Shown piece after piece: positions 6,001 through 9,000 of a stretch of DNA of 43,204 nucleotides. The number at the start of each line of letters is the position of its first letter. Position 1 is the stretch's first letter. Origin of the DNA: a virus; UHGV virus genome UHGV-0007115. The stretch is one strand, 5' to 3'. Made by a program: the position numbers.

Positions 6001-9000
6001 CAGCGTTCCGCATCATGCCGCGTCCCTCTGCCCATCAAGCTGATCCGCCAGATCCCAGCGGGCGATAATTGCCATTGCCTCTCGCCGATAGGCATCCATC
6101 AGTTCTTCGAACTCAGGGCTGTCTTTAGCAGCCTCCAGTACTTCCTGACGAACGCCTTTGCCTGTTACAACGTCAAAAGTTGAGGACAGTTGATGAAGTC
6201 GGATGCTCTCAATCAGTTCAACTTGTCGGTCATATAGCTGTTCTGACAGGCGGTAGTCCTTGTCGAATGCCAGCATGATTTTTTGAAGATTTTTCTGCTG
6301 TTTAACGTTCATTATCAGCCCTCCCATATCTCGTTATCGTTGGCTACATCGCGAGCTTCTTTGCTGACGAAAGCCCACTTAATGCCTTCCTGTAAGGTGC
6401 GGAACTTCCAGCTCATGAATCCGCATGCAGTAACGCAGTACCAACCGTTGATGATTTTCCACTGCATAACTTGTTACCTCGGTCTGTTACCGTTGAGGTA
6501 ATAATTATGCGTATCTGGTTTGATGTCAATAGATATGAGTTAAAAAAATTACCCGTTAGGTAATCGAATAGGCAATAAAAAAGCCGCCATAAGGCGGCTT
6601 ACTTACTGAAAAATATGATTTTATTGTTTGTTTTTTTCGTTCTGGTTGATGACAAATTCAATGTAACTTTCGATCTTTGCCTTCTCTGTTTCAGGTAACA
6701 ATGCGTAGCGCGAGCGGTCATAGTTGATAGTCGCGGGGTCGTGCGGGTGAATCAGTAATTCATATCCGTGACGCCCAAATGCGGATGCAACATTCTCCAG
6801 GGTGGAAATGGAAACGCTGACCTCATTGTTTAACAGGCGGCTGATTGTTACCTGGGCGACGCCGGATGCGCGGTGAAGTTTTCCCTGCGTTGAAAGGTCG
6901 CGGCTTTCGCTCATCCAGCGTTCCAGGTTGTGAGCCGCCAGTTGACCAATGTCGCTTGGTCCGACAGGCTGAAAACCTTCCTGAGAAAGCGAGCGATCGA
7001 TATCAAGCCAGTTACGGGGTTTATTGGCGGCAGCTTCAATTTTTCGCGCAACCTGGTCGCCGATAACCTTCTTGCCAAGAGCCCAGCGGTTTACCAGATT
7101 TGCCTGAGTTCCAAGTTTTTCAGCCATCCGCGTCTGAACACCATTGAATTCACGGTCGATCAAGTCGTTGAGATTTTGCCTGCGGACGTCCTGGATACTT
7201 TTCATTTTCTGGAAAATCGCCTCATATCTGAATCAGAAGATGATTCAATTTAAAGCAATATTACCCAACAGGTAAATACACCTCATGGGTAACTATCCTT
7301 GATTTTTGTTACCTTATAGGTGAATATTTATTATCTGAAATAAATATCAGGCAATAGCTATGAGCGATAACGGACATTTCGATTTCAAAAAGCACTGGCT
7401 TGCACTTACTCCGGATGAGCGTGAAGCCTTCGCACAGGAAGCCGGAACGACGAGTCACTATATCCAGACTCACTTAACAGGTAAGCGCAAAATGCCAGGT
7501 AAGGTATTGATGGATGGGCTTTTTAAAGCCTGTAAATCAAGACAATGGCTGCGCTCAAAAGCAGAACTGGCATACTTCTTCTACTCATGATATCCAGCTA
7601 CAACCCTCTGTAGACCGCCACCCGGCGGTCTTTTCATATCTATTCGTACCTCAAAGGTAATAAATAACCAAATCTGGTTGATCTTTTTTTTGTGTCAGCA
7701 CAAAATGACCGTAATCCCAATACTAATAACAGGGCTTACCATGGAAATCATTACACGTATTGATGCCGCAAAGCGCGGACTTAAACGCTACTACACCGGA
7801 AAACCATGTAAGCACGGACATGACAGTGAACGCTGGGTTTACAACGGACACTGTGTTGAGTGCACCATGGAATCAAACCGTCGCATCAGGGCAGAGATTA
7901 AGCAGATCATGATTAATTCCTCCCCACAACACTCAAGCTGATAGCGGAGATTAATCATGAGCAGACATGCAACAGATTGGGCCTGGGAGACAGATCCAGG
8001 TAGCTCATCATTAAAGCTCATACTGCTCTCGATGGCTGACAGAGCCGATGAATATAACCTCTGCTACCCCAGCATAGAACGCCTCGTTAAAGACACTTGC
8101 CTGAATAAAAAAACCGTGCAGGCCGGGCTTATATCGCTCATGAAAATGGGGCTTATTTCAGATACCGGAGAGAGAAAGGGAGCGACAAAAAGAGTGCGGG
8201 TTTTCTCTCTTAATATAACCAAAAACGGGAACATTAAAGGCAACCGGGAGGGGGGCAATGAACCCGAAAACGGTAATGTTACCGAAAACGGGAATATACC
8301 CAAAAACGGGATGTTGAATGATCCCAAAAACGGGATGTTGAATGATCCCAAAAACGGGATGTTGAATGATCCCAAAAACGGGATCCAGAACCAGTCATAT
8401 AACCAGTCATTTAACCAAGAGAGGGAGAGCAGGACAAAAACCGGGGATTCTGTTCCTCATGACCCCGGCGCAAACAACGCCGTGATGAATAACTTTGTTC
8501 CTCCTGGTGGGCCAGGGCAATTAGGTAAATTTGTCATGCATGAACAATGGCAGCCATCAGATGACTTTCTTCGGAAAAGCTCATTGCAGGGAATCTACCT
8601 GGACAGTCTGCCAACGGCACAGGAACTTGCAGAGTTCAGAATTTACTGGATGGCTGAGGGTAAGGCATACCATCAGGCACAGTGGGATCAGAAGCTGGCA
8701 AGGCGCATCCAGTTCTGTAGACAGAAATCAGGTGAAGTCAGAAAGAGCCTTGACTGGCATAACACTGACTGGATAGATGAGGTGTGGGATGAAATCAACT
8801 CCAGAACTTCTTAATGAGTACGATCGCTTTCGTGGTGGGCATGACCACTCGACGGCGGTTGCTTCTGCTGACGATGAAAGGGCAAAGAAGGAGCAGGTTG
8901 CAAGAATTTTCAACGAAATGTTTGTCCAGTTACAGGCTGCATTTCCAGGCAGCATCGCTGCTATCAGCGAGCAAGGAAAGCTAAACGAATTTCGAAAACA

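What the first reader, a model, noticed from the sequence alone, without database searches (positions are those of the whole stretch)
8217..8420. Replication origin iterons embedded in the initiator gene
Seven copies of CCnAAAACGG(G/T)A, including three perfect 24-bp tandem units, lie in frame inside the O-like gene and encode an NGMLNDPK peptide repeat. Two aaccagtcat repeats follow. This matches the lambda arrangement of the origin inside the O gene and pinpoints the likely ori.
Basis: seen in the sequence. Interest (0 to 1): 0.4.

Follow-up and report, generated by a model that had tools for sequence, protein, structure and literature searches.

The report
Phage replication origin inside initiator gene
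Seven short DNA repeats inside a prophage's replication-initiator gene are very probably that phage's origin of replication, built on the same plan as the classic lambda origin; this is an expected feature, though I found no written description of it for this phage group.

Summary
Seven exact CCNAAAACGGKA copies lie on the + strand at 8219-8383, three of them in perfect 24-bp units. Two AACCAGTCAT copies follow. All lie in frame in a 285-aa gene.

The window is an E. coli phiV10/epsilon15-like (Uetakevirus) prophage. The gene encodes an HTH_36 DNA-binding N-domain, a repeat-encoded linker and a DnaT-like C-domain. A lambda-P-like helicase loader gene follows.

The repeats are selected as DNA, not as peptide:
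- In homologues from about 80 distant genomes the same core sits at the same place.
- It always uses the rare CCC proline codon (65/65, against 15% elsewhere in the same genes).
- In 20 of 37 genomes it is read in two or three reading frames.

Copy number varies from 4 to 12 among close relatives, always in 18- or 24-bp steps. Edwardsiella phage GF-2 is a natural chimera. It joins this N-domain and repeat block to the C-terminal half of lambda O, exactly where lambda's iterons and AT-rich tract lie.

The origin reading is therefore well supported by comparison, but not by experiment. Two caveats apply: the gene is not a Pfam lambda-O member, and the window has no lambda-like AT-rich tract. The verdict is a new member of a known kind, of modest interest. 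The conserved second repeat is the only unexplained part.

The parts
7957..8814 (+). Replication initiator gene (285 aa): HTH_36 N-domain, repeat-encoded linker, DnaT-like C-domain
   Evidence: ORF. Pfam HTH_36 at aa 18-67 and DnaT at aa 192-258. phrog_1032 'replication initiation protein', E=2e-106. Same gene as phiV10 p43.
8008..8157 (+). Helix-turn-helix (HTH_36) DNA-binding domain, the presumed iteron reader
   Evidence: Pfam PF13730, E=2.4e-10. It travels with the repeat array in phages of Edwardsiella, Vibrio, Acinetobacter and Burkholderia and in 74 diverse genome loci.
8219..8230 (+). Iteron 1 (CCAAAAACGGGA), set 45 bp before the main array
8264..8311 (+). Iterons 2-4 at 18-bp spacing (CCGAAAACGGTA, CCGAAAACGGGA, CCAAAAACGGGA)
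   Evidence: The number of 18-bp units varies among relatives.
8322..8385 (+). Iterons 5-7 at 24-bp spacing, each ATCCCAAAAACGGGAT with 5-bp inverted arms ATCCC/GGGAT. With iteron 4 they form the perfect 24-bp tandem array.
   Evidence: Dyad symmetry of the arms across the family exceeds shuffled controls. Arms and centre resemble the lambda iteron ATCCCTCAAAACGAGGGA.
8389..8422 (+). Second repeat type, 12-bp period: AACCAGTCATAT, AACCAGTCATTT and a degenerate AACCAAGAGAGG. Candidate unwinding or loading element.
   Evidence: Family consensus RAWYCNNNCA: at least 2 clustered units in 59 of 83 loci, none elsewhere, read in two frames. Least stable 30-mer to the right of the array, z=1.55.
8412..8445 (+). 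A/G-rich tract on the top strand (AACCAAGAGAGGGAGAGCAGGACAAAAACCGGGG), at the position of the A-rich AT block seen in many homologues and in lambda
   Evidence: AT skew +0.57 at 8400-8439. Homologues have TAAAAATAAAAA-type blocks here. Lambda has an AT block at L012 620-665.
8530..8730 (+). DnaT-like C-terminal domain (ssDNA-binding fold)
   Evidence: Pfam PF17948, E=1.5e-14. PDB DnaT C-domain chains 4ou6, 6aep and 9zbt, E about 1e-18.
8749..8811 (+). C-terminal tail LDWHNTDWIDEVWDEINSRTS, a candidate docking peptide for the P loader
   Evidence: 7 of 9 residues identical to the lambda O tail LDLTNTDWI. Tail type co-varies with the P allele across otherwise different initiators.
8777..9571 (+). 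Lambda-P-like helicase loader gene. The ORF ATG is at 8777; RefSeq relatives start at the position equivalent to 8789.
   Evidence: Pfam Phage_lambda_P, E=4e-53. 41% identity to lambda P. RefSeq start.

Best explanation
The repeats are the initiator-binding sites (iterons) of this phiV10/epsilon15-like prophage's replication origin. They are written into the flexible linker of the initiator's own gene, as in lambda.

Proposed mechanism:
1. Dimers of the initiator's N-terminal helix-turn-helix domain bind the partly palindromic sites (ATCCC-AAAAAC-GGGAT). This builds a multi-protein complex on the 7-site array.
2. That complex strains and opens the DNA just to the right, at the 12-bp AACCAGTCAT repeats and the A/G-rich tract.
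3. The DnaT-like C-domains, concentrated there, hold the single strand.
4. The C-terminal tail brings in the lambda-P-like loader carrying the host DnaB helicase.

Shown here:
- the repeats exist;
- they are conserved as DNA;
- they are tied to this N-domain;
- their number varies;
- in one natural chimera they occupy the position of lambda's iterons.

Inferred: binding, opening, loader recruitment and the actual start site.
For: Statistics in the window: 7 exact copies, none elsewhere in 43 kb.

Gene context: initiator-type protein followed by a lambda P homologue, downstream of repressor and cro-like genes.

DNA-level selection:
- Among 65 non-identical P[KE]NG peptides picked by peptide alone from 34 genomes, Pro is CCC in 65/65. 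CCC is 15% of Pro codons elsewhere in the same genes.
- The Lys/Glu codon ends in A in 65/65, and Asn is AAC in 61/65.
- Conserved residues of the N-domain in the same genomes have randomised synonymous sites: mean top-codon share 0.48, and the invariant Pro is CCC in only 5/34.
- The 10-nt core is read in 2 or 3 frames in 20 of 37 genomes, giving PKTE, QKR and PKNG.

Linkage to the N-domain:
- An array of at least 3 copies lies at nt 226-600 in 70 of 76 homologues, against 5 of 76 in the rest of the gene.
- The window's core becomes rarer as the N-domain diverges, while arrays persist.

Other support:
- Dyad symmetry of the arms exceeds shuffled controls.
- Copy number varies from 4 to 12, in frame. 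This parallels the 4 versus 6 iterons of lambda and Stx phages (PMC7466680).
- GF-2 joins this N-domain, iterons and 12-mers to lambda O residues 156-299 (62% identity) and to the right arm of ori-lambda.
- The unit resembles the lambda iteron.
- Lambda O and this N-region both hit phrog_678 and phrog_345.
Against: - There is no experimental evidence of binding or of initiation at this site.
- The window has no lambda-like AT-rich tract. The least stable stretch to the right of the array is only z=1.55, whereas the intergenic 7637-7666 (z=2.3) and 8209-8238 (z=2.0) are less stable.
- No direct sequence similarity to lambda O or P22 gp18 was found.
- The lambda right-arm palindrome is absent here.
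- Conservation as DNA proves a DNA function, not specifically origin function.
Confidence: 0.8

Rival explanations
1. The repeats are only a slippage-prone peptide repeat (an Asn-Gly-rich linker) with no function as DNA.
For: The 24-bp units are 100% identical, so recently duplicated. Copy number changes freely and always in frame. The region lies between two folded domains.
Against: Synonymous sites in the core are fixed across distant genomes, while those of conserved N-domain residues are randomised. The same core is read in 2-3 frames and encodes unrelated peptides. The central residue changes radically (N, I, F, Y, S, T) while the DNA stays CCC-(A/T-rich)-GGG.
Confidence: 0.03
2. The repeats are initiator-binding sites that act in control (autoregulation, titration or pairing of copies), while strand opening and initiation occur elsewhere, for example in the AT-rich intergenic region 7637-7730.
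For: The least stable DNA near the gene is upstream at 7637-7666, z=2.3. The window has no AT-rich block next to the array. Iterons have control roles in plasmids (PMC4980987, title and abstract seen).
Against: In GF-2 the block sits exactly where lambda's iterons and AT tract lie and is joined to lambda's right origin arm. Many homologues do have an A-rich AT block right after the 12-mers. No copy of the iteron exists outside the gene in the window or in 78 flanked relatives.
Confidence: 0.1
3. The conserved DNA is kept for another reason: as a homology patch that promotes module exchange at the boundary between the N- and C-halves of initiator genes, or as a site for another protein.
For: Mosaic junctions fall right after the repeat block. 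GF-2 and lambda homology starts at lambda O residue 156. PPompW and ZX5 share sequence from just after their repeats. The 12-mer element is kept even where iterons and C-domains differ.
Against: Iteron cores change with the N-domain, which fits a cognate reader better than a universal patch. Dyad symmetry and a conserved spacing pattern are features of protein-binding sites. There are no DnaA boxes nearby.
Confidence: 0.05

Closest known systems
ori-lambda inside gene O of phage lambda (four ~19-bp iterons, AT-rich tract, right palindrome; O N-domain binds, O C-domain recruits P-DnaB)
   Same: The array of partly palindromic direct repeats lies in the middle of the initiator gene, in the linker between a DNA-binding N-domain and a recruiting C-domain, with a P gene next (PMC7466680). 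The unit is similar: lambda ATCCCTCAAAACGAGGGA against window ATCCCAAAAACGGGAT. The top strand to the right is A-rich. The C-tail motif LDxxNTDWI is shared.
   Different: The N-domain is Pfam HTH_36, not Phage_rep_O, and BLASTP finds no similarity. The C-domain is DnaT-like, not the lambda O C-domain. There are 7 sites at 18/24 bp instead of 4 at 20-24 bp. 12-bp repeats replace a clear AT tract. There is no right palindrome.
Stx-phage origins (933W, P27) with six iterons
   Same: Extra iterons add in-frame residues to the initiator, and iteron number differs between close relatives (PMC7466680). Here the range is 4-12 copies.
   Different: Those are true lambda O alleles. Binding and the need for the extra iterons were shown by experiment; nothing has been tested here.
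P22 ori in gene 18, and the repeats in phage L gene 18
   Same: Repeats inside the gene are taken as the origin, and initiators differ in iteron specificity (PMC8022706; P22 rep_origin annotation). One copy of the window-family 12-mer (GAATCAGTCA, L175 1914-1923) lies between the last P22 iteron and its AT block.
   Different: P22 gp18 is Pfam Phage_rep_O and pairs with a DnaB-type helicase (gp12). Its iterons are TCGGTAAAAC-type.
Iteron plasmids (RK2, R6K, pPS10 and similar)
   Same: Direct repeats are bound by a winged-helix type initiator next to an unwinding element that itself holds short repeats (general knowledge; PMC4980987 for review).
   Different: Plasmid iterons are usually outside the rep gene, are bound by monomers and are accompanied by DnaA boxes. 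Here they are inside the gene, have dyad arms, and no DnaA box is near.
E. coli DnaT (replication-restart preprimosome)
   Same: The initiator's C-domain matches the DnaT C-domain, E about 1e-18. That domain forms filaments on ssDNA (PMC13377028).
   Different: DnaT is positioned by PriA/PriB on forks. Here a sequence-specific HTH domain and iterons would do the positioning. The DnaT N-domain is absent.

Membership tests
Lambda-type origin embedded in the initiator gene | Array of at least 4 direct repeats with internal dyad symmetry in the middle of the initiator gene | tested here: met
   7 copies at 8219-8383. Arms ATCCC/GGGAT. Symmetry exceeds shuffled controls across the family.
Lambda-type origin embedded in the initiator gene | Repeats lie in the linker between the DNA-binding N-domain and the C-terminal recruiting domain | tested here: met
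   HTH_36 at aa 18-67, repeats encode aa 88-155, DnaT domain at aa 192-258.
Lambda-type origin embedded in the initiator gene | Repeats constrained as DNA and specific to the cognate initiator | tested here: met
   Codon, control and frame tests. The core changes as the N-domain diverges.
Lambda-type origin embedded in the initiator gene | AT-rich unwinding tract directly beside the iterons | tested here: inconclusive
   In the window the GC fraction is about 0.42 and stability is z=1.55 at 8393-8422. Many homologues have an A-rich AT block there.
Lambda-type origin embedded in the initiator gene | Helicase-loader gene (P) immediately downstream | tested here: met
   PF06992, E=4e-53; 41% identity to lambda P.
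Lambda-type origin embedded in the initiator gene | Initiator binds the repeats and replication starts there | not testable with these tools
   Needs footprinting, a minimal-replicon assay or marker-frequency sequencing.
Lambda O protein family (Pfam Phage_rep_O) | Significant match to PF04492 | tested here: not met
   The window protein hits HTH_36 and DnaT only. Lambda O and P22 gp18 hit PF04492. BLASTP and hhalign to lambda O are negative. The only remote link is shared hits to phrog_678 and phrog_345.
Lambda O protein family (Pfam Phage_rep_O) | Lambda-O-type C-terminal domain | tested here: not met
   The C-domain is DnaT-like. Only the last-tail motif LDxxNTDWI is shared.
Iteron-plasmid type origin | DnaA boxes accompanying the iterons | tested here: not met
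   The nearest TTWTNCACA is at 10074, and the window total equals chance.

The most novel reading that the evidence does not exclude
The 12-13-nt RAWYCNNNCA repeats (AACCAGTCAT in the window) may be a distinct, so far undescribed origin element. It is shared by a large initiator superfamily of phages of Proteobacteria and is present as one copy in the P22 origin. It would be the site where the duplex is first opened and one strand is recognised as ssDNA. With its DnaT-like filament-forming C-domain, the window's initiator would then work like DnaA: double-strand boxes for positioning plus a single-strand filament for opening.
Probability: 0.3. Interest if true: 0.55.

Novelty: new member of a known kind. 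Interest (0 to 1): 0.35.

Why it matters
- It gives a concrete, testable origin for phiV10/epsilon15-like phages. These phages are used as E. coli O157 typing and reporter phages, and the gene is present in about 10% of complete E. coli genomes (536 of 5426).
- Public annotation calls the gene 'DnaT-like' or 'primosomal protein', although it is a sequence-specific initiator.
- Across about 80 distant genomes, the N-domain, its iterons and a second short repeat move together as one module, while the helicase-recruiting half is swapped. This is a clean natural data set for studying how iteron specificity evolves.
- It is a clear example of coding sequence carrying a DNA signal that is read in all three frames.

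Tried and rejected
- Direct homology to lambda O: BLASTP and a shallow profile comparison were negative. Only a transitive PHROG link was found.
- P22 gp18: no similarity.
- AlphaFold on the single sequence gave mean pLDDT 36.5, which is unusable, so no fold search was run. The homologues returned by the protein search were too close to deepen the alignment.
- The first related-loci scan of viral contigs returned only near-identical relatives. These served for copy number, not for diversity.
- The first genome scan failed for lack of a conserved stretch and was repeated with fewer sequences.
- Rfam found nothing in 6000-10500.
- There are no DnaA boxes near the repeats.
- The promoter scan was at chance level.
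- Literature: no paper in the held library contains the iteron or the 12-mer in a phage context. The epsilon15 genome paper could not be fetched under the DOI or PMC id I tried; the phiV10 paper was not looked up by id. I therefore cannot exclude that one of them mentions the repeats.
- Peptide-repeat-only reading: rejected.
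Full report
**1. The observation**

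The sequence at 8217-8420 is as described. CCNAAAACGGKA occurs 7 times in the 43-kb window. All copies are exact and on the + strand, at 8219, 8264, 8282, 8300, 8324, 8348 and 8372. Shuffles give 1.08 on average and never 7.

Tandem Repeats Finder reports a perfect 24-bp array (8299-8384, 3.6 copies), an 18-bp array (8262-8311) and a 12-bp array AACCAGTCATAT (8389-8417). The spacings are 45, 18, 18, 24, 24 and 24 bp, so every copy is in the same frame of ORF 7957-8814. The peptide repeat PKNGMLND is real.

**2. Context**

The ORF (285 aa) has three parts:
- a Pfam HTH_36 domain at aa 18-67;
- a DnaT DNA-binding domain at aa 192-258, which also matches the solved DnaT C-domain at E about 1e-18;
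- an overall match to PHROG 1032, 'replication initiation protein', E=2e-106.

The next gene is a lambda-P homologue (PF06992; 41% identity to lambda P). Upstream lie a two-HTH repressor, a cro-like gene and a terminator.

The region is 96-97% identical to Escherichia phages phiV10, phiv142-3 and PAS61 (Uetakevirus, the epsilon15-like group). The gene occurs in 536 of 5426 complete E. coli genomes. RefSeq names it 'DnaT-like ssDNA-binding domain-containing protein' or 'primosomal protein'.

It is not a Pfam Phage_rep_O protein, whereas lambda O and P22 gp18 are. BLASTP and a shallow profile comparison to lambda O are negative. However, the N-regions of both lambda O and this protein match PHROGs 678 and 345. 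That is a remote, transitive link.

**3. Copy-number variation**

In eleven annotated relatives the count is 5-8. In 78 near-identical IMG/VR prophages it is 4-9, with 57 of them having 6. A 311-aa variant has eight PKNG units in its 24-bp array, about 12 sites in all.

Gains and losses are whole 18- or 24-bp units and never break the frame. The AACCAGTCAT unit varies from 1 to 3 copies; phiV10 has 3. No iteron copy lies outside the gene in any 3.2-kb locus. The window's 7 copies are one 24-bp unit more than the commonest form.

**4. Distant relatives**

A tblastn search with the first 90 aa found N-domains of 43-57% identity in several phages:
- Edwardsiella phages GF-2 and EPP-1;
- Vibrio phage Her;
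- Acinetobacter phages AB1, AP22 and Ab105-2phi;
- PPompW;
- Burkholderia phage Bcep176.

A scan of one genome per species found 74 more loci at 40-87% identity, in Vibrio, Proteus, Providencia, Pseudoalteromonas, Acinetobacter, Marinomonas, Desulfovibrionaceae and others.

All carry repeats directly after the N-domain. A search that assumes no motif finds at least 3 copies of some 11-mer at nt 226-600 in 70 of 76 genes. In the rest of the gene this holds for only 5 of 76.

The spacing follows a shared pattern. Units at 17-18 bp come first, then units at 22-24 bp next to the second repeat type.

Close N-domains keep the window's core CCRAAAAYGG: a mean of 3.3 copies at 60% identity or more. 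More distant ones average 0.85-1.2 copies of it. The other cores seen in more distant N-domains include GTCCCAACGTTGGGAC, GTGCCAAAAGTGGCAC, GTCGGAAAAATCCGAC and CATACCGGTAGGG. The outer arms are complementary more often than in shuffled pairings: 0.61 against 0.39, and 0.73 against 0.53, with 0 of 2000 shuffles reaching the observed values. This fits binding by a symmetric dimer.

**5. DNA signal or peptide signal?**

I picked sites by peptide alone: P[KE]NG in the linker, 65 non-identical sites from 34 genomes.
- Pro is CCC in 65/65, against 15% of Pro codons elsewhere in the same genes.
- The Lys/Glu codon ends in A in 65/65, against 60-66% elsewhere.
- Asn is AAC in 61/65, against 56% elsewhere.
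- The third base of Gly is free.

As a control, residues at least 90% conserved in the N-domain of the same 34 genomes have randomised third positions. The mean top-codon share is 0.48, the invariant Pro is CCC in 5/34, and the invariant Lys is AAA in 17/34.

Where spacings are 17 or 22 bp, the same 10-nt core is read in different frames. Two or three frames are used in 20 of 37 genomes, giving PKTE, QKR and PKNG. The central residue also changes radically (N, I, F, Y, S, T) while the DNA stays CCC-(A/T-rich)-GGG.

The selected object is therefore the DNA. The NG-rich peptide in the window is a by-product.

**6. The second repeat**

After the last iteron, nearly all family members have 'CAGAAYC' followed by 2-4 units of about 12 nt:
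- GAACCAGTCAtt in Vibrio, Alkalimonas and the window;
- GAATCTCCCAAT in Acinetobacter;
- GAACCTATCAAT in a methanotroph.

The pattern RAWYCNNNCA forms clusters with 11-14-nt spacing in 59 of 83 loci at nt 300-650. It forms none anywhere else on either strand. Units are read in frame 2 (77 units) or frame 0 (49 units). Both frames are used within one gene where the spacing is 13 nt, for example QNQS and EPVI in phage Her.

This element stays the same where the iterons, the C-domains and the helicase or loader partners all differ. In many genomes an A-rich AT block follows it (TAAAAATAAAAA...). In the window and in Superficieibacter an A/G-rich tract takes that place. One copy, GAATCAGTCA, lies between the last iteron and the AT block of the annotated P22 origin (L175 1914-1923).

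In the window this stretch is the least stable DNA to the right of the array, but only mildly so (z=1.55). There is no lambda-like AT tract. What reads this element is unknown.

**7. A natural chimera**

The initiator of Edwardsiella phage GF-2 has this family's N-domain (57% identity), three ATCCCAAAATTGGGAT units at 24 bp and the 12-mers. After them it becomes 62% identical to lambda O residues 156-299. That stretch includes the DNA of lambda's right origin arm (GAGAATTCTG(G/A)CGAATCCTC) and is followed by a gene annotated in the GF-2 record as putative DNA replication protein P.

The block 'N-domain + iterons + 12-mers' thus replaces 'lambda O N-domain + iterons + AT tract' as one unit. This is the strongest positional evidence that the block is the origin's left and middle part.

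Lambda's own iterons (ATCCCTCAAAACGAGGGA, four copies at 20-24 bp) share the arms TCCC/GGGA and the centre AAAAC with the window's unit.

**8. Likely mechanism**

Shown: the points in sections 1-7. The rest is inferred from what is established for lambda. In lambda, O binds the iterons, the AT tract opens and the O C-domain recruits P-DnaB (PMC7466680 and the work cited there). It also draws on DnaT, whose C-domain forms a filament on ssDNA (PMC13377028).

The proposed steps are:
1. N-domain dimers occupy the 7 sites.
2. The complex opens the adjacent 12-mer and purine-rich stretch.
3. The tethered DnaT-like domains hold the single strand.
4. The tail recruits P with DnaB.

The tail idea rests on co-variation:

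| Initiator tail | Found in | P protein starts with |
|---|---|---|
| LDWHNTDWI... | window, and ZX5 with its different N-half | MKSTPELL... |
| LDLTNTDWIYGV | lambda, GF-2 | lambda-type P |
| PHWNSPEAWEDFL | phiV10, EPP-1 | VNNVFTAIQNRDG... |

**9. Rivals**

- A pure peptide repeat is excluded by section 5.
- A control-only role, with opening elsewhere, cannot be excluded without experiments. It is made less likely by section 7 and by the absence of iterons outside the gene.
- A recombination-boundary role is possible for the 12-mers, because mosaic junctions fall just after them. It does not explain the dyad symmetry, the spacing pattern or the change of iterons with the N-domain.

**10. Novelty**

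Origins inside initiator genes, iteron-number variation and inference of an origin from repeats inside the gene are all standard for lambdoid and P22-like phages (PMC7466680, PMC8022706). I found no description of this iteron set or of the 12-mer element in the searchable literature. The epsilon15 genome paper could not be fetched, and the phiV10 paper was not looked up by id.

The finding is a new member of a known kind. Interest is modest. The conserved 12-mer element and the DnaT-type C-domain are the parts that could repay experiments.

Noticed in passing
window 8749-8811 and 8777-8900; L001, L002, L012, L013, L019: The last ~20 residues of the initiator co-vary with the N-terminus of the P loader, whatever the rest of the initiator looks like. 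The LDxxNTDWI tail goes with the MKSTPELL or lambda-type P. The PHWNSPEAWEDFL tail goes with the VNNVFTAIQNRDG-type P. This suggests a docking peptide.
   Followed up: partly
L013 (Edwardsiella phage GF-2) 1501-2343: Natural chimera. The N-domain, iterons and 12-mers of the window's family are fused to lambda O residues 156-299 and to the right arm of ori-lambda.
   Followed up: yes
L175 (P22) 1914-1923: One copy of the family's 12-mer core (GAATCAGTCA) lies between the last iteron and the AT block of the annotated P22 origin. It could be chance.
   Followed up: no
window 8307-8374, minus strand: Each 24-bp unit scores as a terminator-like hairpin on the minus strand (GGGAT/ATCCC stem plus a T run). 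This is probably a by-product of tandem dyad arms.
   Followed up: no
L002 (phage ZX5) 1833-2663: A close relative of the prophage carries a different initiator N-half. It has its own repeats (GTAACGC...) and a TATATATAAAA block, joined to the same DnaT-type C-half. This is a second origin type in the same phage group.
   Followed up: partly
L101-L174, nt 226-600 of the initiator genes: The iteron arrays share a spacing pattern across distant genomes: 17-18-bp units first, then 22-24-bp units next to the 12-mers. The reason is unknown.
   Followed up: partly
window 7957-8814: RefSeq and other sources call this gene 'DnaT-like ssDNA-binding domain-containing protein', 'primosomal protein' or 'helix-turn-helix domain-containing protein'. 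None of these says that it is the origin-binding initiator.
   Followed up: no
window 7612-7631: A strong terminator-like hairpin lies between the cro-like gene and the replication genes. It is annotated as a terminator in phiV10 and sits where lambda has tR1.
   Followed up: no
window 4085-6016 and 9689-10033: A RecT/YqaJ recombination pair lies on the minus strand. A DUF1064 protein lies after P and matches a PHROG named 'Holliday junction resolvase'.
   Followed up: no
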